DNA of 64,000 nucleotides from NCBI GenBank assembly GCA_016861265.1, contig BOLA01000001.1, positions 395,569 through 459,568 of the forward strand, given 5' to 3'. The first letter of the stretch is position 1; each line of letters starts with the position of its first letter. This document shows positions 12,634-57,460 of the stretch, piece by piece. The notes below the pieces were generated by a model. The model saw nothing but the letters and a program-made list of their open reading frames with translations, was not told where the DNA came from and did no database searches. This DNA is from Patescibacteria group bacterium. GTDB lineage: Bacteria; Patescibacteriota; Dojkabacteria; J137. The translations under genes and the position numbers were made by a program.

Positions 12634-13395
12634 TTATTTAAAGAAGCAATCTACCGCAAATAGATCCTCCGCACTTTCAGTTGGACAAATTCCATTCGCT
12701 CTTCTCTCAAAAAAATTAGAGTCCTGTAATTTTACAGCTGAATCAGCAAAATCCGTCGGATAGACTTTCTCGCTAGTATGCTGCCAGAATGCTACAGAAA
12801 CTAGATAAAAGGATAGTAATACACCCATAAAAATCGCAATTTTCTTAATTTGTGTATTATGAATATATCTTGTTACCTTGCTTTTAAAAGTGACTTCTTT
12901 GTTTTCTGTTAAATCCTCTGCAAATGTACCGCTAATCCATAGAGACAAACCTATTCCGAAGAATGCCCCTGTTAAGAATCTTACTAAGTCGTTACTTGAG
13001 TATACCGGTATTCCCATCAAGCCGCCTTTATACGATAAATTCAACATAGTAAACACTGTTTGAATTCCTCCATCCAATCCAATTGGGATAGCAAAAGGAA
13101 TTACCCAATACCATTTAATCGGTTTTATCTTATTATATTTTAATGCCCATGCTACGAATGCTACACCTGCCCATATTCCTGCATCTCTTGCACACCAAGC
13201 GTACTGGTAATCGAATAGGTGAATCGATCTGGTCGCGAATTGATGACAAAAGAAACTATAAATAAAGTAAATTATCTTTGCTGGGAATATTAAACCCAAC
13301 TTCAGTAAAACAGGGGCGAGAATTGGGAGCGCAACAAGTGTTGTTAATACGCCTAAATACCAATTATAAAAGATTTCTGAAGACTTTTTTGTCAT
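12634..13395 (-). CDS. DUF2085-like polytopic membrane protein
   Basis: Multiple TM helices plus an FFCHQFATRS motif reminiscent of the DUF2085 CHQ signature. The family assignment is from memory. Confidence 0.45.
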   Translation of the reverse strand: MTKKSSEIFYNWYLGVLTTLVALPILAPVLLKLGLIFPAKIIYFIYSFFCHQFATRSIHLFDYQYAWCARDAGIWAGVAFVAWALKYNKIKPIKWYWVIPFAIPIGLDGGIQTVFTMLNLSYKGGLMGIPVYSSNDLVRFLTGAFFGIGLSLWISGTFAEDLTENKEVTFKSKVTRYIHNTQIKKIAIFMGVLLSFYLVSVAFWQHTSEKVYPTDFADSAVKLQDSNFFERRANGICPTESAEDLFAVDCFFK

Positions 13396-13397
13396 AG

Positions 13398-14096
13398 TTA
13401 ATTAATTTCAGTACCTATAAATGCATTGCCAGTTAGTAGATTTTTTAGATTCTCAAAATCCATTCCGCTAACAACATAGAATGTTATACCATTTTCCTTC
13501 GCCAATCTAGCAGCAATTGGATCTACAGGTAAATTAGCCCCCGGGGTGTGCTTTTCTGGATTACCAATAATTCCTAAGTATTCATCCCAATCAACCTTTG
13601 ACAATCTTTTTGCATTAGGGTTCTTATCGGGATCTTCTGAGTAAACAGCATCAATATCCTTTAAGGTTACTATTTGCTTGGCTCCTAAACGCTTAGCTAG
13701 CCAAGTTGCATCCCAATCACTGCTAGGTCCCGGCTGACCAGCACCCGCAATTAGGAATCTTTTATTAAATTTAATCGGCGAATCTGAATTTAAATCGCCT
13801 AGACCTAGAATCTTGTCTTCGGCTAGATTACCAAAGACACTCCTTAACATTACCGCGTTCATATTACACGCAACAGTTCCAATATAATGCTGATCGTATT
13901 CTGGGTAGTTATTATCCTTTAATAATTGTTGATATTCTCTACTAATATTGCCACCCCCAGTTATTAGTACAAATTTTAGATTTGAATCTACTGAATTAAA
14001 AAATTCTTTTATCCTTTGGGCTTCTTGAAAATCGAAAAGTTTATCCTTTAAAGATAAAACAGAGCCACCAATTTTTACAACGAAGATATTTTCCAT
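13398..14096 (-). CDS. pyrH: UMP kinase (amino-acid-kinase fold, archaeal-type short form)
   Basis: VVKIGGSVL N-terminus and a VLITGGGNISREY glycine motif (compare PyrH GGGNIFRG). 232 aa. Confidence 0.7.
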   Translation of the reverse strand: MENIFVVKIGGSVLSLKDKLFDFQEAQRIKEFFNSVDSNLKFVLITGGGNISREYQQLLKDNNYPEYDQHYIGTVACNMNAVMLRSVFGNLAEDKILGLGDLNSDSPIKFNKRFLIAGAGQPGPSSDWDATWLAKRLGAKQIVTLKDIDAVYSEDPDKNPNAKRLSKVDWDEYLGIIGNPEKHTPGANLPVDPIAARLAKENGITFYVVSGMDFENLKNLLTGNAFIGTEIN

Positions 14097-14162
14097 AAAA
14101 ATTCTTAAGTTATTACTTTATATCACAGCTTATATAATCAATAAAGGAATTAAGAAGGGATT

Positions 14163-14183
14163 GCCTCCGAATTATCGGAGGCG
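14163..14183 (-). terminator. intrinsic terminator of the GC-rich islet-1 gene
   Basis: Hairpin gcctccga-atta-tcggaggc lying 6 nt downstream (minus sense) of the TGA stop of 14189..14548. Confidence 0.55.
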
Positions 14184-14188
14184 TCTCC

Positions 14189-14548
14189 TCACAGCCTAGG
14201 ATTAGATGTTATTTCTGGCTGAGGCGGTACTCTTCGCCTTCTGCGGAAATGCTCCTTTCGATCCCAGAGACCGAATATTGCATGACTAGCCACCGCAATC
14301 AGAAAGCCCCACATTGTGAGATTGCCAATGTTCATGTATATCTCACTTCCGGTTTCGAAGTGTACGATATAGCAACCCCAGCCTCCGCCTGCGAACACCA
14401 GTATCGACAATACGCTTATCAGAACAGAATAGTGATCATCCCGTTCCATAAAGCGGATTACGACTTGTGCTACGAAGATGATAACCGCGACTACGGACAA
14501 CACAGGTGCAATATATGCCGTAGCTTTAATTAGCCAAACTAGCTGCAC
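14189..14548 (-). CDS. small 3-TM membrane protein with Arg-rich C-terminus, encoded in a GC-rich islet; function unknown
   Basis: GTG start 5 nt downstream of a strong SD GGGAGGTG. GC-rich codon usage of about 48% GC against about 33% background. Three hydrophobic helices, then an RRRRRVPPQP tail. Followed by its own hairpin terminator. Confidence 0.6.
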   Translation of the reverse strand: MQLVWLIKATAYIAPVLSVVAVIIFVAQVVIRFMERDDHYSVLISVLSILVFAGGGWGCYIVHFETGSEIYMNIGNLTMWGFLIAVASHAIFGLWDRKEHFRRRRRVPPQPEITSNPRL

Positions 14549-14845
14549 GATACACCTCCCAGGTTTACAATGAGCAGTAGCTAATTATAACATTGGTTGG
14601 CTATTTAAAGCCTCTTACAGAATTAATGCTATAATAAATCCGAATAAAAGCAGAAGTTTGATAATAATTAGCACAAAAACTTCAGTAAAAAGCCTAAGAG
14701 AACTGATTTATATTGAATTGCCGAAGAAATTCAACTATAAAAAATCCCTCAGAATATCTTCTTTTTAACGAATAGTTTGTTAATTACCCTATAACTTGGA
14801 ATTGAATAACTTTTGCAACTAAATTAAAATACATTAAAAATAAAT

Positions 14846-16609
14846 ATGGAAAACTTAGAAACAAAGAAAGAAGTTCCTGCGCAGGAACCAAAATTAAATT
14901 TTGGTGGACTTGAAAAAAGACCTACGCACAAAAGAACAGCACCACAAGGTGATTTAAAAATTATACCGTTGGGCGGAGTTGAAGAAATAGGTATTAACTG
15001 TACCGCATACGAATACAACAACGACATTCTTATAGTTGATTTAGGATTGGGATTTTCTGAATTCGACTATTATGGAATCGACGCAGTTGTTCCGGATATT
15101 AAGTACCTTGTACCTAAAAGAAAAAGAATTAAAGGTATTTTTGTAACTCACGGTCACTTAGACCATATAGGTGCGTTTCCTTATCTAATTGAGGAATTAG
15201 GATTCCCACCAGTGTATGGATCTAAATTCACAATTGAGATGATAAAACAGAGAGTTGATGAGATACCTGGCCTACTACAAAGATTATTGCCTAAACTACA
15301 TGTTGTAGAGGAAAAAGACGTAGTTAAGCTTGGTAGCTTTAAGCTTGAATTCTTTCATGTAAACCACTCAATTCCTCAGTGTCTGGGAGTTTGTATACAA
15401 ACACCAACAGCAAGAGTTGTACAAACAGGAGACTTTAAATTTGACAATACTCCAATTAACGAACCCGTAGCAAACTTTGGAAAAATTGTTGAGTTCGGTA
15501 ATAGAGGCGTAGATGTTCTACTTGCTGACTCTACTAATTCACTTAAGAAAGGATATCCGGTTTCGGAGAGCGACGTCGCAAAAAACTTGGAAGATGCTAT
15601 TGATAGAGCTGAAGGAAGAGTTATTGTTGGTACGTTCTCGGGCTTAGTAGGTAGACTTTACCAACTAATTCAAATTGCAGTAAAGCAAAAAAGGAAAGTG
15701 GCTATTGCCGGCTTTTCTATGAACAAAACTTTAACACTAGCACAAGAAATCGGTTATATAAAAATACCACCTGGATTATTAATTCAGATGAAAGATGTAA
15801 TGAGATACGATCCTTCACAGGTATTAATATTAACAACGGGAGCACAAGGTGAGCCCGATGCCGCGTTAAGTAAAATGTCCTCCGAAGATTATAAAGGTTA
15901 TCAAATACAAAAAGGTGACAAAGTAATTATTTCGGCTAAAACAATTCCAGGTAACGATAGGGCCGTTCAGTTAATGGTAGACAACATTACAAGAAGAGGA
16001 GCTACCGTAGCACAATTGGATGATCTTGATTTATTCACATCAGGACACGGTTACCAGGAAGACCAGAAAATAATGTTGAACTTGGTAAAACCAAAATTCT
16101 TTATGCCAGTTCATGGGTACCAATATTTCTTAAGGGCACACGGCGAAACAGCTGTAAAAGTTGGAGTAAAAAGAGAGAATCTTATTATTGCACAAAGAGG
16201 CTGTGTTATTGAGGGTAATAGATTCAAAGGTTTTAAGATAACAAGAAAGTTTCCTTGTGAACCATTAATAGTATCGGGATCAGGGGTTGGCGATATTGGA
16301 ACAGTTGTTCTAAAAGAAAGAGAACAAATGGCTAACTACGGAATGATTATTATAAGTTTGATGGCCGACAAAGATAGAAAACTTACAAGATCACCATTCG
16401 TATTAACAAGAGGATTTGTATATGTAAAAAAGAATCAGGAATTAATTCAATACATTTCTGATAGTGTAGAAAAAATATACGCGGGTGCTATAAAAGATGG
16501 TTTAGACAATAATGCTATTAAGGATGCACTATCTAACGAAATTGGAAGATTAGTGTTTAAGGAAACAGAAAGAGAGCCAATAATAATGACTATACTAAAT
16601 TACGTCTAA
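14846..16609 (+). CDS. rnj: ribonuclease J (metallo-beta-lactamase/beta-CASP RNase)
   Basis: VTHGHLDHIGAFPYL (the HxHxDH motif) and the beta-CASP region. 587 aa is typical of RNase J. Confidence 0.85.
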   Translation: MENLETKKEVPAQEPKLNFGGLEKRPTHKRTAPQGDLKIIPLGGVEEIGINCTAYEYNNDILIVDLGLGFSEFDYYGIDAVVPDIKYLVPKRKRIKGIFVTHGHLDHIGAFPYLIEELGFPPVYGSKFTIEMIKQRVDEIPGLLQRLLPKLHVVEEKDVVKLGSFKLEFFHVNHSIPQCLGVCIQTPTARVVQTGDFKFDNTPINEPVANFGKIVEFGNRGVDVLLADSTNSLKKGYPVSESDVAKNLEDAIDRAEGRVIVGTFSGLVGRLYQLIQIAVKQKRKVAIAGFSMNKTLTLAQEIGYIKIPPGLLIQMKDVMRYDPSQVLILTTGAQGEPDAALSKMSSEDYKGYQIQKGDKVIISAKTIPGNDRAVQLMVDNITRRGATVAQLDDLDLFTSGHGYQEDQKIMLNLVKPKFFMPVHGYQYFLRAHGETAVKVGVKRENLIIAQRGCVIEGNRFKGFKITRKFPCEPLIVSGSGVGDIGTVVLKEREQMANYGMIIISLMADKDRKLTRSPFVLTRGFVYVKKNQELIQYISDSVEKIYAGAIKDGLDNNAIKDALSNEIGRLVFKETEREPIIMTILNYV

Positions 16610-46002: not shown

Positions 46003-46109
46003 AATATGGTTTATCAATGTATTTACGAATAATCTTTTCACATGCATATTATAGCACTATATTAGAGTTTTCTGGTAAAATCCTGAACTGGTAACTAAGG
46101 AGGTAACTT

Positions 46110-46331
46110 ATGAGATTAATGCTTGTTCAACGAAAAGTGGGTGATCCGACTTTGGAACAGATAGAGCGTAACCCACAAGGTCATGTCGAGCCTGTCGCTA
46201 TTATCGTCGTTAATACCGAACTTACCGATGCCGAGATGAACGAGTTAGGACAATCTGTCCTTGCAATTATTGGCGATAAGCCAGTAAATACCGAGGAACT
46301 AAGAGATTTTTACTCAATGTTCATGGGTTAG
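46110..46331 (+). CDS. small hypothetical protein (73 aa) in GC-elevated islet 3
   Basis: Strong SD AAGGAGGT 7 nt upstream of the ATG. GC-rich codons of about 45% GC. Followed by a perfect hairpin terminator. Confidence 0.5.
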   Translation: MRLMLVQRKVGDPTLEQIERNPQGHVEPVAIIVVNTELTDAEMNELGQSVLAIIGDKPVNTEELRDFYSMFMG

Positions 46332-46336
46332 TCTCG

Positions 46337-46362
46337 GCAGGGCGGAGTTTACTCCGCCCTGC
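46337..46362. terminator. intrinsic terminator, perfect 12-bp GC-rich stem
   Basis: gcagggcggagt-tt-actccgccctgc, which lies between the small ORF on the plus strand and the convergent rsmB-like gene on the minus strand. Confidence 0.65.
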
Positions 46363-46369
46363 ACTAAAC

Positions 46370-47480: not shown

Positions 47481-47654
47481 ATGGCAGTTGCAAAAAGAAA
47501 AACTGTTGCAAAGAGAAAACCAGCTGCAAAAAAAGCAGTTAGAAAGGTTGTTGCAAAGAAGAAGACTGTTGCTAAGAGAAAGCCAGCAGCTCGAAAGACT
47601 GTTGCTAAGAAGGCAACTAGAACAACAGCTAAAAGAAAAACTTCAAGAAAATAA
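47481..47654 (+). CDS. lysine/alanine-rich basic repeat protein (histone H1/Hc1-like nucleoid protein), 57 aa
   Basis: The ATG at 47481 gives MAVAKRKTVAKRKPAAKKAVRKVVAKKKTVAKRKPAARKTVAKKATRTTAKRKTSRK*, a stretch of imperfect tandem repeats. The stop is followed at once by a strong terminator. The ORF track offers a different frame at 47488..47793 that runs through the terminator. Confidence 0.5.
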   Translation: MAVAKRKTVAKRKPAAKKAVRKVVAKKKTVAKRKPAARKTVAKKATRTTAKRKTSRK

Positions 47655-56172: not shown

Positions 56173-56275
56173 CTTCTGACTGTAAGAAGTAGTGAAATTA
56201 TTATATCAGAAGAAATTTTTTGAATTAAAACTGTAAAGGTAGCAGCTAACAACAATTGTTTGTTATTAATTGCTA

Positions 56276-56298
56276 CCTTCGGAAAGCCGATCCGAAGG
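56276..56298 (-). terminator. GC-rich hairpin terminator of islet-2 gene A
   Basis: ccttcgga-aagccga-tccgaagg, 17 nt downstream (minus sense) of the stop at 56315. Confidence 0.5.
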
Positions 56299-56314
56299 TG
56301 CCGTTCACGAAGAA

Positions 56315-56785
56315 CTAGCGCTGGGTAAAGATCACGCTGTGGTGGTCGCCGATCCCTGCGGTTGCCACAATGGGCAAACCGTTAAAGGTGGCAAACACGC
56401 CGTAGGCTTTACCCTTAAGAACCATTTGATCACCAACAAACCATCCGACACGCTGGAAGGTTGACCCTCCCGCAGCTGCGGTTGTGTATGTTCCGAATTC
56501 GCTTCCGCGAACCGAGTAGTTTTGTCCGTCAATGGTAACCCAGCCAGCATTAGCTAACTGGTTTGCGACCATTGCGGTTCCAAATCCTTTGGAACCGCAA
56601 TGAATCCCGGCGACCATCAGAACAATTATGAATACAAGGTAGACCATTCCATCGTGCCGTCCGGCAAACTTTCCCAGAATCAGAACGAGAATAGTACCAA
56701 TTCCCAATGTCGCCGCCACTGCAGCATACTCCAGACCGAGAAACATGAATGCTCCCGCTGTGAGTGCTGCAACCAGAACGAACAA
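56315..56785 (-). CDS. membrane-anchored hypothetical protein (156 aa in ORF-track frame) in GC-rich islet 2; start ambiguous / possible frameshift
   Basis: GC-rich codons of about 50% GC. Two N-terminal TM helices, then a Gly/Ala/Thr-rich domain. The track start is TTG. An SD-led ATG (AGGAG-N8-ATG at 56817) opens a 45-aa ORF in a neighbouring frame that overlaps this gene's start. Confidence 0.5.
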   Translation of the reverse strand: MFVLVAALTAGAFMFLGLEYAAVAATLGIGTILVLILGKFAGRHDGMVYLVFIIVLMVAGIHCGSKGFGTAMVANQLANAGWVTIDGQNYSVRGSEFGTYTTAAAGGSTFQRVGWFVGDQMVLKGKAYGVFATFNGLPIVATAGIGDHHSVIFTQR

Positions 56786-56855
56786 AACGCAACGAATCTC
56801 TTACCTGTGCTGCTCATTGCCTGTACTCCTGTGATCAATTAATCCTAGATCGTAT

Positions 56856-56903
56856 GTTACCGATCTTTCTGAGAACCAACTGATTCGCAAGAAGATCGGT
56901 AAC
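56856..56903. promoter_or_regulatory. perfect 12-bp inverted repeat (gttaccgatctt / aagatcggtaac, 24-nt spacer) upstream of islet-2 gene A; candidate operator
   Basis: Exact reverse-complement arms. A third CGGTAAC copy lies at 56993-56999. Confidence 0.4.
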
Positions 56904-57028
56904 AAGCTTTCCGAAGTTTTAAAGAACCTTAGCTTTATTAAGCATAAGATATATATAGTATATACCTATAATATATTTCTGTCAACCATTGTCGGTAACA
57001 CTAGGTAAATTTAATAAGAAATTTAATA

Positions 57029-57052
57029 CCCCGGTACTCTGATTTCCCGGGG
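57029..57052 (-). terminator. hairpin terminator of the 31-aa peptide gene
   Basis: In the minus sense, gccccggg-aaatcagagta-ccggggt followed by a U-rich tract, 12 nt after the TAG stop. Confidence 0.5.
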
Positions 57053-57063
57053 CATTGCTTGTA

Positions 57064-57159
57064 CTACTGATGAATGACCTGTTCAGCATTCCGCTTCAGC
57101 AGAATGTACGCGAGACCAAACAAAACCAACCCTACTACTACCACTTGCCACAGCGGCAT
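57064..57159 (-). CDS. 31-aa single-TM hydrophobic peptide (MPLWQVVVVGLVLFGLAYILLKRNAEQVIHQ); not in ORF track
   Basis: ATG preceded by the SD GGAGGTG with a 6-nt spacing. GC-rich codons. Followed by its own terminator. Its composition resembles small membrane regulatory peptides and type I toxins. Confidence 0.45.
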   Translation of the reverse strand: MPLWQVVVVGLVLFGLAYILLKRNAEQVIHQ

Positions 57160-57460
57160 AGCACACCTCCAATAAATATTTACGGGCAACGAGTTATATA
57201 ACAACAATATATTTTATACAATTTACTTGGCCATCTAACATGCTATAATTTTTATATGAATAGATACAGAATGTTAAATATAACTATCTTCTGGGCCTAA
57301 GCCCTCTACTTTCATACCTAATCTTAGAAAAACAACTACCTTAACTACGGCTTTATAGCTTAGTTTTAATATATCAAAAGGTTCTAATAACAAGAATCTG
57401 CTTTTGAAAATCATAATCCGGCGATTAAGTTGTTATAATCTATATAATTATTATAAAAAT

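What the first reader, a model, noticed from the sequence alone, without database searches (positions are those of the whole stretch)
14160..14580. GC-rich micro-islet 1: SD-driven small 3-TM protein gene with its own terminator, embedded in an AT-rich, SD-less genome
A stretch of about 400 nt has about 48% GC, against about 33% in the flanking DNA.

It holds a single minus-strand gene, 14189..14548, with GC-rich codons. Its GTG start sits 5 nt after a near-perfect Shine-Dalgarno sequence, GGGAGGTG. Its TGA stop is followed by a GC-clamped hairpin (gcctccga-atta-tcggaggc).

Essentially none of the housekeeping genes in this window has an SD sequence. The islet therefore differs from its host in base composition, codon usage and translation-initiation signals.

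The product is a 119-aa membrane protein with three TM helices and an RRRRRVPPQPE tail, with no recognisable family. It is inserted between pyrH and rnj in an otherwise conserved neighbourhood. That placement is typical of a recently acquired cassette.
Basis: seen in the sequence. Interest (0 to 1): 0.72.

Follow-up and report, generated by a model that had tools for sequence, protein, structure and literature searches.

The report
Old GC-rich small membrane-protein gene
The GC-rich patch is a real, self-contained gene for a small three-helix membrane protein, but it is not a recent import: a whole subgroup of Saccharibacteria has carried it in the same slot for a very long time, and its odd GC-rich coding and ribosome-binding site appear to be actively maintained.

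Summary
Window 14160-14580 has 47.7% GC against 33.5% for the window. It holds one minus-strand gene, 14189..14548 (119 aa, 3 TM), with the only strong Shine-Dalgarno (SD) site among about 56 genes and a GC hairpin after the stop.

The gene is truly protein-coding: dN/dS is 0.07-0.10, and only the sense frame stays open in the orthologues.

- Orthologues from 96% down to 25% identity sit in the same rnj/PIG-L | X | pyrH-DUF2085-gatB slot in at least six lineages of uncultured Saccharibacteria.
- dS equals that of the neighbouring genes.
- There are no relatives in phage, plasmid or viral collections, no tRNA and no flanking repeats.
- Two more distant genomes lack the gene, so it is clade-specific.

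Every orthologue keeps these features, although synonymous sites are saturated:
- GC3 of 0.46-0.58, against 0.15-0.30 in neighbours;
- an invariant TGnTATAAT box and a TG(C/T)TCATT leader;
- an SD;
- a terminator stem with compensatory changes.

The composition is therefore maintained, not a fading import signature. The mRNAs fold more stably than synonymous-codon shuffles in 7 of 7 orthologues; controls do not.

Best reading: an orphan small membrane protein expressed from an SD-dependent, highly structured, probably long-lived mRNA. The protein's function is unknown.

The parts
14584..14592 (-). Extended -10 promoter box TGTTATAAT of the small gene
   Evidence: TG-TATAATT is invariant in 8 orthologous upstream regions, although synonymous sites are saturated (alignment A4). 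Function as a promoter is inferred from consensus and conservation; it has not been measured.
14569..14576 (-). Invariant leader element TGCTCATT, near the predicted transcript 5' end
   Evidence: TG(C/T)TCATT is invariant in all 8 orthologues, 9-10 nt after the -10 box. It has no conserved pairing partner in the transcript and no other copy in the window. Its role is unexplained.
14553..14560 (-). Shine-Dalgarno sequence GGGAGGTG, 4 nt before the GTG start
   Evidence: An SD of 5-9 nt lies at canonical spacing in every orthologue. X is the only SD-led gene of 10-15 in each of four related loci.
14189..14548 (-). Coding sequence of the 119-aa three-TM protein 'X' (GTG start, TGA stop)
   Evidence: dN/dS is 0.07 and 0.10, with changes concentrated at codon position 3. 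Only the sense frame is open in all orthologues. The GTG aligns with ATG in the orthologues. AF2 gives three long helices at pLDDT 77.7.
14163..14182 (-). Terminator hairpin (8-bp GC-rich stem, 4-nt loop), 6 nt after the stop
   Evidence: The core 7-bp stem is 100% paired in 8 orthologues, and 4 of 7 pairs show compensatory double changes; 0 of 500 shuffles reach this. Most orthologues have a clear T-run after it. In the window copy the tail is only T-rich, and the simple scanner did not call it.
14135..14162 (-). T-rich tail after the hairpin (AATCCCTTCTTAATTCCTTTATTG...)
   Evidence: It is weaker than the T-runs of L002, L008, L011 and L012.
14117..14125 (-). Conserved TGATATAAA box upstream of pyrH; neighbouring pyrH promoter, marks the end of the X unit
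   Evidence: GCTGTGATATAAAG is conserved downstream of the X terminator in W, L001, L002, L005 and L008. It is also present in L019, which lacks X.

Best explanation
The islet is one monocistronic transcription unit of about 415 nt. In order it contains:
- an extended -10 promoter;
- a leader of about 28 nt with an invariant UGCUCAUU;
- a strong SD;
- a GTG start and 119 codons;
- an intrinsic terminator.

It encodes an orphan small integral membrane protein. The protein has three TM helices, with the N-terminus probably outside and a basic, Pro-rich tail inside.

The gene is specific to one subclade of uncultured Saccharibacteria and has been inherited vertically in a fixed slot just upstream of pyrH/DUF2085. 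Its GC-rich, nearly uniform codon usage and its SD are maintained by selection at the nucleotide/mRNA level. They are not a decaying signature of import.

The most likely mechanism is as follows. The message is built to be strongly folded and long-lived. It therefore cannot use the genome's default AU-rich, SD-independent initiation and depends on SD-anti-SD pairing. The 5' SD-bound ribosome, the GC-rich body and the 3' hairpin together protect it from RNase J, endonucleases and 3' exonucleases.

Shown: gene reality, synteny and vertical descent, conserved signals, maintained composition, excess folding.

Inferred: mRNA stability, SD dependence in vivo, topology, and any protein function.
For: Coding:
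- dN/dS is 0.07 and 0.10, with substitutions biased to position 3.
- The antisense ORF is not conserved.

Vertical descent:
- The same slot is occupied in L001, L002, L004, L005, L008, L011, L012 and L017.
- dS of X equals dS of pyrH (0.27 vs 0.28 against L001) and lies within the range of pyrH/rnj against L002 (1.5 vs 1.4-2.7). It is saturated beyond that.
- X is absent in the outgroups L019 and L021.

Maintained composition:
- GC3 is 0.46-0.58 in all orthologues, against 0.15-0.30 in their neighbours.
- X is the only GC islet in each 8-16 kb locus, and there is none in L019.
- Third positions are near-uniform (A .26, C .20, G .29, T .25) against host values (A .40, C .10, G .12, T .37). Both G and C rise in NNY, NNR and fourfold families, so this is not a C-ending optimal-codon pattern.
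- With dS above 2, neutral relaxation to the host GC3 should be essentially complete (my two-state estimate; inference).

Conserved signals: promoter and leader, SD, terminator covariation.

Folding:
- The whole transcript has z=-3.4 against dinucleotide shuffles.
- Synonymous-codon shuffles that keep protein and codon composition give z=-2.0 to -5.2 in 7 of 7 orthologues.
- Twelve control genes give -1.8 to +1.25. There is no overlap; the exact rank test gives p of about 2e-5.

Precedent, from papers:
- A strong SD blocks RNase J1 on B. subtilis hbs mRNA (PMC5737220).
- CPR bacteria other than some Parcubacteria retain the anti-SD (PMC9297842).
Against: - No conserved base-paired structure exists across the coding region (SCI 0.05). 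The folding excess is generic, and its functional meaning is inferred.
- No expression, half-life or ribosome data exist.
- No 16S rRNA lies in the window, so the anti-SD was not checked for this organism.
- Polarised changes between the two closest genomes lean GC>AT (11 vs 4, small numbers, distant outgroup). This is also what slow decay would give.
- Rare-codon slowing of translation would produce the same GC3 shift.
- The window copy has only a weak T-tract after the hairpin.
- Protein function is not addressed by any homology: Pfam, PDB, PHROGs and PADLOC gave nothing, and fold searches gave only generic helical bundles.
Confidence: 0.6

Rival explanations
1. Recently acquired horizontal cassette. 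In this view a foreign gene from a GC-richer, SD-using donor was dropped between pyrH and rnj and has not yet ameliorated.
For: - Composition, codon usage and SD are atypical.
- The family is an orphan with a narrow distribution.
- The gene is absent from two more distant genomes.
Against: - The same gene, slot and composition occur in six or more lineages, down to 25% identity.
- dS equals that of the neighbours.
- GC3 is uniform at about 0.47 despite saturated dS.
- No phage, plasmid or viral relatives exist.
- There is no tRNA, there are no bracketing repeats, and no mobility genes lie nearby.
Confidence: 0.03
2. Ancient single horizontal gain at the base of the clade, for example from a GC-rich, SD-using Actinobacterial host or its phage. 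The composition would then have been frozen by selection. This rival concerns origin only and is compatible with the best explanation for maintenance.
For: - The gene is present in genomes with pyrH identity of 63% or more and absent at 57% and 48%.
- It is a complete 'portable' expression unit: consensus promoter, SD and terminator.
- From the literature, Saccharibacteria live on Actinobacteria (PMC9297842).
Against: - No donor or outside homologue was found among 1.84 billion representatives or 5.8 billion clusters.
- Loss in the outgroups, or de novo birth, fit the data equally well.
Confidence: 0.3
3. GC-ending rare codons are selected to slow or limit translation of a potentially toxic or insertion-sensitive membrane protein (holin-like or channel-like). 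In this view mRNA folding is a by-product.
For: - GC-ending codons are rare in this genome, and X uses them about 2-3 times more often.
- The protein has holin-like architecture: about 120 aa, 3 TM and a basic C-tail.
- The second islet also encodes small hydrophobic proteins.
Against: - Shuffling synonymous codons within the gene, which keeps codon usage, still loses folding energy in 7 of 7 orthologues. Arrangement matters, not only codon choice.
- A strong SD and a consensus promoter argue against a design for low expression.
- The third islet (73 aa) is not hydrophobic, yet it shares these traits.
- There is no holin family match and no lysin partner.
Confidence: 0.2
4. The islet is primarily a structured non-coding or dual-function RNA. 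In this view GC richness reflects RNA structure and the ORF is incidental or secondary.
For: - GC-rich islets in AT-rich genomes are typically RNA genes.
- Folding z-scores are significantly negative.
- The 5' leader element is invariant.
Against: - There is no Rfam, tRNA or tmRNA hit.
- Purifying selection on the protein is strong.
- There is no conserved consensus structure and no covariation in the body (SCI 0.05).
- Only the terminator covaries.
Confidence: 0.07
5. Local GC-biased gene conversion at a recombination hotspot raises GC without selection on the transcript.
For: A recombination breakpoint lies within about 1 kb: dS between W and L001 drops from 0.28 in pyrH to 0.012 in DUF2085.
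Against: - The GC rise of about 20 points coincides with the transcript boundaries, from SD to terminator.
- It is absent from pyrH, which lies next to the breakpoint.
- It recurs identically in all lineages.
- It comes together with a conserved SD and promoter.
Confidence: 0.05

Closest known systems
rpsU (bS21) of Flavobacteriia: the lone strong-SD gene in an SD-'blind' lineage (PMC9976891, PMC13000453, PMC7797042)
   Same: - A conserved, strong SD sits on one or a few genes in a lineage whose other genes lack SD and use upstream A/U-rich signals.
- This implies a special translational regime for that mRNA.
   Different: - The product here is an orphan membrane protein, not a ribosomal protein.
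- Whole-gene GC enrichment and excess folding are not features of rpsU.
- Sequestration of the anti-SD, or the bS21 status, is unknown for this organism and was not testable from the window.
Ribosome/SD-mediated mRNA stabilisers of Bacillus (hbs mRNA, STAB-SD; PMC5737220)
   Same: - A strong SD sits in a short leader of a small monocistronic mRNA with a 3' hairpin.
- The organism encodes RNase J, here as the adjacent gene.
- The proposed logic is that a bound 30S/70S blocks 5'-to-3' decay.
   Different: - Stability has not been measured here.
- No conserved 5'/3'-UTR pairing was found.
- The GC enrichment spans the whole coding region, which is not described for hbs.
Horizontally acquired genomic islets / ORFan cassettes
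   Same: - GC content, codon usage and tetranucleotide composition are atypical.
- There are no homologues outside a narrow clade.
   Different: - Synteny is conserved across deep divergence.
- dS equals that of the neighbours.
- Composition has not ameliorated despite saturated dS.
- There are no mobility signatures.
Class I holins (lambda S type)
   Same: - Size is about 100-130 aa.
- There are three TM helices with predicted N-out/C-in topology.
- The C-terminal tail is highly basic.
   Different: - No PHROGs, Pfam or BFVD match reaches significance.
- There is no endolysin or phage context.
- There is no dual-start motif.
- The gene has been under long-term purifying selection in a housekeeping neighbourhood.

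Membership tests
Recently acquired genomic island / cassette | Composition and codon usage atypical for the host | tested here: met
   GC is 0.472 against 0.335. GC3 is 0.475 against 0.272+/-0.027. The tetranucleotide z-score is 4.2.
Recently acquired genomic island / cassette | Absent from the orthologous site in close relatives (patchy presence) | tested here: not met
   The gene is present at the same site in all relatives with pyrH identity of 63-100%. It is absent only at 57% and 48%.
Recently acquired genomic island / cassette | Divergence history different from the flanking genes | tested here: not met
   dS of X against pyrH is 0.27 vs 0.28 (L001). Against L002 it is 1.5 vs 1.4-2.7 for pyrH and rnj.
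Recently acquired genomic island / cassette | Mobility signatures: tRNA target, flanking repeats, integrase/transposase, phage or plasmid relatives | tested here: not met
   There is no tRNA in the window and no bracketing repeats. No phage, plasmid or IMG/VR relatives were found. The neighbours are housekeeping genes.
Shine-Dalgarno-led gene | At least 5 nt complementary to the 16S 3' tail, 4-9 nt upstream of the start, conserved in orthologues | tested here: met
   GGAGGTG lies 4 nt before the GTG. SDs of 5-9 nt are present in all orthologues.
Shine-Dalgarno-led gene | Anti-SD (CCUCC) present and accessible in this organism's 16S rRNA | not testable with these tools
   No rRNA gene lies in the window. 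The literature says most CPR bacteria retain the motif (PMC9297842).
Intrinsic (Rho-independent) terminator | GC-rich stem-loop directly after the stop, supported by covariation | tested here: met
   The stem is 100% paired in 8 sequences, and 4 of 7 pairs have double changes.
Intrinsic (Rho-independent) terminator | U-tract immediately 3' of the stem | tested here: inconclusive
   T-runs are clear in L002, L005, L008, L011 and L012. The window copy has only a T-rich tail and was not called by the scanner.
Known structured RNA families (Rfam, tRNA, tmRNA) | Covariance-model or ARAGORN match | tested here: not met
   There were no gathering-score hits in the window. Only chance-level hits (E above 4) fell in 14050-14850.
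Class I holin | Three TM helices, N-out/C-in, charged C-terminal tail, about 95-130 aa | tested here: inconclusive
   Three hydrophobic segments and a basic tail occur in all orthologues. Topology was inferred only from charge distribution; no dedicated predictor was available.
Class I holin | Sequence or profile membership in a holin family, and a phage or lysis-cassette context with an endolysin | tested here: not met
   PHROGs best hit is E=0.38, to a 'membrane protein' family. Pfam gave nothing. BFVD gave no match at E<=0.001. The neighbours are rnj or PIG-L and pyrH.

The most novel reading that the evidence does not exclude
This gene, together with the two other GC-rich, SD-led, self-terminated small genes in the window, may define a conserved second expression channel in AT-rich, SD-independent Saccharibacteria. 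The channel would be a small set of hyper-structured, long-lived, SD-dependent monocistronic mRNAs. They might be translated by a distinct ribosome state, or might persist through a host-free or low-transcription phase of the epibiont life cycle. Their composition would be held by selection on the RNA rather than by ancestry.
Probability: 0.2. Interest if true: 0.8.

Novelty: new variant of a known kind. Interest (0 to 1): 0.55.

Why it matters
- Compositional islands are routinely read as horizontal transfer. Here one is demonstrably old, vertically inherited and still unameliorated, so GC/codon-based transfer calls would be wrong for it.
- It gives a concrete, testable case of selection on synonymous sites and mRNA properties in a reduced, AT-rich episymbiont. 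It also gives a conserved SD-bearing exception in an otherwise SD-less genome, which bears on how Patescibacteria start translation and control mRNA decay.
- On the practical side, gene callers skipped the gene in two assemblies, and its sequence is missing from the NCBI-derived proteins of the same genome. Such genes are probably under-annotated.
- The encoded clade-specific membrane protein is a candidate for lineage-specific envelope or host-interaction biology. Nothing here shows that.

Tried and rejected
- Known RNA gene: Rfam at gathering and permissive thresholds and ARAGORN gave nothing.
- Overlapping antisense gene (94-aa plus-strand ORF 14249..14533): not conserved. The 96%-identical orthologue has 5 stops in that frame.
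- Conserved RNA structure in the coding body: codon-guided alifold gave SCI 0.05.
- SD sequestration by a conserved local hairpin: the predicted partners differ between orthologues.
- Leader-to-3' pairing as in hbs or icaR: no conserved partner.
- The leader motif as a recurrent genomic signal: no other copy in the window.
- Paralogy with the second islet's 156-aa protein: hhalign probability 0.1%. There are no paralogues in the window.
- JGI metagenome pattern scans found no further loci, and one alignment was too divergent to seed a scan.
- Sample accessions could not be linked to papers, so the habitat is unknown.
- Polarised substitution counts were too few to decide between equilibrium and slow decay.
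Full report
**1. What is in the sequence**

Window 14160-14580 is 47.7% GC. The window as a whole is 33.5% and the flanking kilobases are 34-36%. It is the second most GC-rich 360-nt stretch of the 64 kb (z=3.9) and a tetranucleotide outlier (z=4.2).

It holds one minus-strand ORF, 14189..14548, of 119 codons with a GTG start.
- GGGAGGTG lies at 14553-14560, 4 nt before the GTG.
- Six nt after the TGA lies the perfect hairpin GCCTCCGA-ATTA-TCGGAGGC (14163-14182).
- GC is raised at all three codon positions (0.54/0.40/0.475, against about 0.49/0.33/0.26 in the neighbours).

Resampling synonymous codons from the host's own usage predicts GC 0.387+/-0.014 and GC3 0.279+/-0.038 for this protein. 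Observed values are 0.472 and 0.475 (z=6.1 and 5.1). Roughly a third of the excess therefore comes from amino-acid composition and the rest from codon choice.

Among 56 crudely called genes with full upstream sequence, this is the only one with a 6-nt or longer match to the SD core. One other has a 5-nt match at a poor 2-nt spacing. The others carry a weak TTTAAAA motif at -14..-8 and almost no G upstream.

**2. Is it a gene or an RNA?**

A GC islet of this size in an AT-rich genome is classically a structured RNA. Rfam (gathering and permissive thresholds) and ARAGORN found nothing.

The ORF has relatives.
- Against the 96% and 74-76% identical orthologues, substitutions concentrate at codon position 3 (19 of 24; 51 of 93).
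- dN/dS is 0.07 and 0.10.
- Only the sense frame is open in all orthologues. The 94-aa antisense ORF of the window has five stops in the closest relative.
- The GTG aligns with ATG starts in the other genomes.

It is a protein-coding gene under purifying selection.

**3. Distribution and history**

A profile search of 1.84 billion representative proteins found only four real relatives. A word-indexed search of 5.8 billion clusters found six, including all four. The remaining hits were repeat artefacts.

Every homologue whose contig could be read sits in the same place. It is transcribed divergently from rnj (or from a PIG-L gene inserted next to rnj). It lies immediately upstream of pyrH-DUF2085-gatB-corA.
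- One more orthologue, a 166-aa protein in GCA_964414295.1, turned up while inspecting a genome with 76% pyrH identity.
- The one species-representative genome that matched a close-relative pattern scan (motifs taken from the three closest sequences) is titled 'uncultured Candidatus Saccharibacteria bacterium'.
- Identity to the window protein runs 96, 74-76, 41, 34, 29-31 and 25%.

dS of this gene equals that of its neighbours: 0.27 vs 0.28 for pyrH against L001, and 1.5 vs 1.4-2.7 against L002. It is saturated beyond that. The gene therefore shares their history.

Two more distant genomes lack it.
- In L019 (pyrH 57% identical), PIG-L and pyrH are separated by 113 AT-rich bases.
- L021 (48%) has a different arrangement.

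Other evidence against mobility:
- No relatives exist in 50,697 phage records or IMG/VR, and the only plasmid hit among 72,556 records was noise.
- No tRNA lies in the window.
- No repeats bracket the islet.

The identical islet occurs in independent assemblies from other samples, so it is not an assembly chimera.

What remains possible is one ancient gain (or birth) at the base of this subclade. No donor is identifiable.

**4. The unusual point: the anomaly is conserved**

Every orthologue has GC 0.46-0.51 and GC3 0.46-0.58, in genomes whose loci are 31-34% GC and whose neighbouring genes have GC3 0.15-0.30.
- In each related 8-16 kb locus it is the only GC islet, and the locus without the gene has none.
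- In four loci it is the only gene of 10-15 with an SD and the only one with GC3 above 0.3.

The upstream alignment shows an invariant TG-TATAATT (extended -10) and an invariant TG(C/T)TCATT 9-10 nt downstream, followed by an SD.

The terminator stem is paired in 100% of cells, with compensatory double changes at 4 of 7 pairs. None of 500 shuffles reaches this. Most orthologues have a clear T-run. The window copy has only a T-rich tail, and the simple scanner did not call it.

The GC rise starts at the SD and ends at the terminator.

Synonymous sites are saturated between the deep lineages. Under a simple two-state mutation model, neutral sites should therefore have relaxed almost completely to the host value (my estimate; inference). 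A GC3 of about 0.47 in six lineages means a directional force maintains it.

Third positions are close to uniform (A .26, C .20, G .29, T .25, against host A .40, C .10, G .12, T .37). G and C are both raised in NNY, NNR and fourfold families. That is a nucleotide-level signature, not a C-ending optimal-codon pattern.

**5. What the force may be**

The whole transcript folds better than dinucleotide shuffles (z=-3.4; the antisense strand gives -2.1).

A stricter control permutes synonymous codons within the gene, keeping the protein and the codon composition.
- It gives z=-2.0 to -5.2 in all seven orthologues tested.
- Twelve ordinary genes give -1.8 to +1.25.
- The distributions do not overlap.

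There is no conserved consensus structure in the body (SCI 0.05), no conserved SD-sequestering hairpin and no conserved leader partner. Selection therefore seems to favour generic compaction and stability, not a specific fold.

My best explanation is a message built to be strongly folded and long-lived. Such a message cannot use the default AU-rich, SD-independent initiation, so it relies on a strong SD. In Bacillus, a ribosome at a strong SD blocks RNase J1 (PMC5737220), and RNase J is encoded next door. The stability step is inferred, not shown.

Rivals that remain:
- Rare-codon slowing of a delicate or toxic membrane protein gives the same GC3 shift. It does not explain the arrangement effect or the strong promoter and SD.
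- A dual-function RNA.
- GC-biased conversion, which is unlikely because the GC rise follows the transcript borders.

A small excess of GC>AT changes between the two closest genomes (11 vs 4) fits AT-biased mutation opposed by selection. It is too weak to exclude slow decay.

**6. The protein**

AF2 (six-sequence alignment) predicts three long helices at pLDDT 77.7. Hydropathy finds three TM segments in most orthologues, at about 10-31, 42-62 and 77-95; the third segment falls below the threshold in L002.
- Loop 2 is acidic.
- Loop 1 carries the conserved motif R-x-x-E-[RK]-x-D-x-x-S.
- The tail has 4-10 Lys/Arg. In the distant orthologues it is followed by a Pro/Gln-rich extension.

The positive-inside rule suggests an N-out/C-in topology.

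Invariant residues are P15, Q28, R32, E35, D38, S41, G54, G58 (a GxxxG motif in TM2), I61, Y71, L83 and L94.

No family, solved structure or defence or phage model matches. Fold searches return generic helical bundles.

The architecture resembles a class I holin. However, no holin family matches, there is no lysis partner and there is no phage context, so I do not file it there. The surrounding conserved genes are largely envelope-glycan enzymes (GT2, GT4, PIG-L, GtrA, DUF4012). That is only weak guilt by association. Function remains unknown.

**7. Comparison with known systems and verdict**

The nearest analogue in logic is rpsU of Flavobacteriia. It is the lone strong-SD gene in an SD-blind lineage and is translated by a special ribosome state (PMC9976891, PMC13000453). 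SD-mediated mRNA stabilisers of Bacillus are a second analogue (PMC5737220). Neither involves whole-gene GC enrichment.

Against the 'genomic island' class, three of four defining features were tested and not met.

I rate this a new variant of a known kind: a compositional islet that is ancient, vertically inherited and selectively maintained, tied to the only SD in its neighbourhood.

Two further islets in the window share the syndrome. This raises the possibility of a small, dedicated class of such mRNAs. Their deep conservation could not be tested with the searches left.

Interest is moderate (0.55). The evolutionary pattern is surprising and testable, but mechanism and protein function are inferred.

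Noticed in passing
window 56200-57210 (-): This is a second, stronger GC islet (up to 55% GC; tetranucleotide z=6.7). It holds a 156-aa hydrophobic-N-terminus ORF at 56315..56785 (GC3 0.52, synonymous-shuffle folding z=-4.35, start codon uncertain), followed by a hairpin. Upstream lies a separate 31-aa single-TM ORF (about 57064..57159) with GGAGGTG 5 nt before its ATG and its own CCCCGG/CCGGGG hairpin. The 156-aa ORF has no Pfam match and no similarity to the ORF119 family.
   Followed up: partly
window 46060-46365 (+): This is a third GC-rich small unit. It is a 73-aa non-hydrophobic ORF at 46110..46331 with an AAGGAGGT SD, a TGGTAAAAT box upstream and the terminator GCAGGGCGGAG...CTCCGCCCTGC. 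Folding z is -2.35. There is no Pfam match.
   Followed up: partly
window, upstream of 54 called genes: Ordinary genes have no SD. Instead they have a weak positional TTTAAAA motif at -14..-8 (A at -11 in 40 of 54) and almost no G in the last 25 nt. This suggests short-leader or leaderless, or A/U-dependent, initiation.
   Followed up: partly
window 14585-14848 (+): The spacer between the small gene and rnj is conserved. An invariant TGCTATAAT box lies about 210 nt upstream of the rnj ATG, back-to-back with the small gene's promoter. An invariant TAAATTAAAATA lies just before the rnj start. This may be a long rnj leader with two promoters. No convincing conserved structure was found.
   Followed up: partly
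window 12634-14096 versus L001 1722-3184: Between the window genome and its closest relative, dS is 0.27-0.28 in the small gene and pyrH but 0.012 in the adjacent DUF2085 gene. This indicates a recent recombination breakpoint near 13396.
   Followed up: no
window ~47484-47651 (+): A short ORF encodes a Lys/Arg/Ala repeat protein (MAVAKRKTVAKRKPAAKK...). It looks histone-H1-like or nucleoid-protein-like, is followed by a hairpin with a T-run, and is a tetranucleotide outlier (z=4.7).
   Followed up: no
L014 752-1500, L015 752-1500; window 14189-14548: Gene calls on two independent assemblies skip this ORF although the sequence is identical. The exact protein is held only from Logan/ENA assemblies, not NCBI, although the identical pyrH protein is recorded from an NCBI 1.114-Mb contig. 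The gene is probably unannotated in the source genome.
   Followed up: partly
L011 8001-9378: In one lineage the small gene is followed directly by DUF2085 and pyrH is missing from the slot. The stable partner of the small gene is therefore the DUF2085-gatB block rather than pyrH itself.
   Followed up: no
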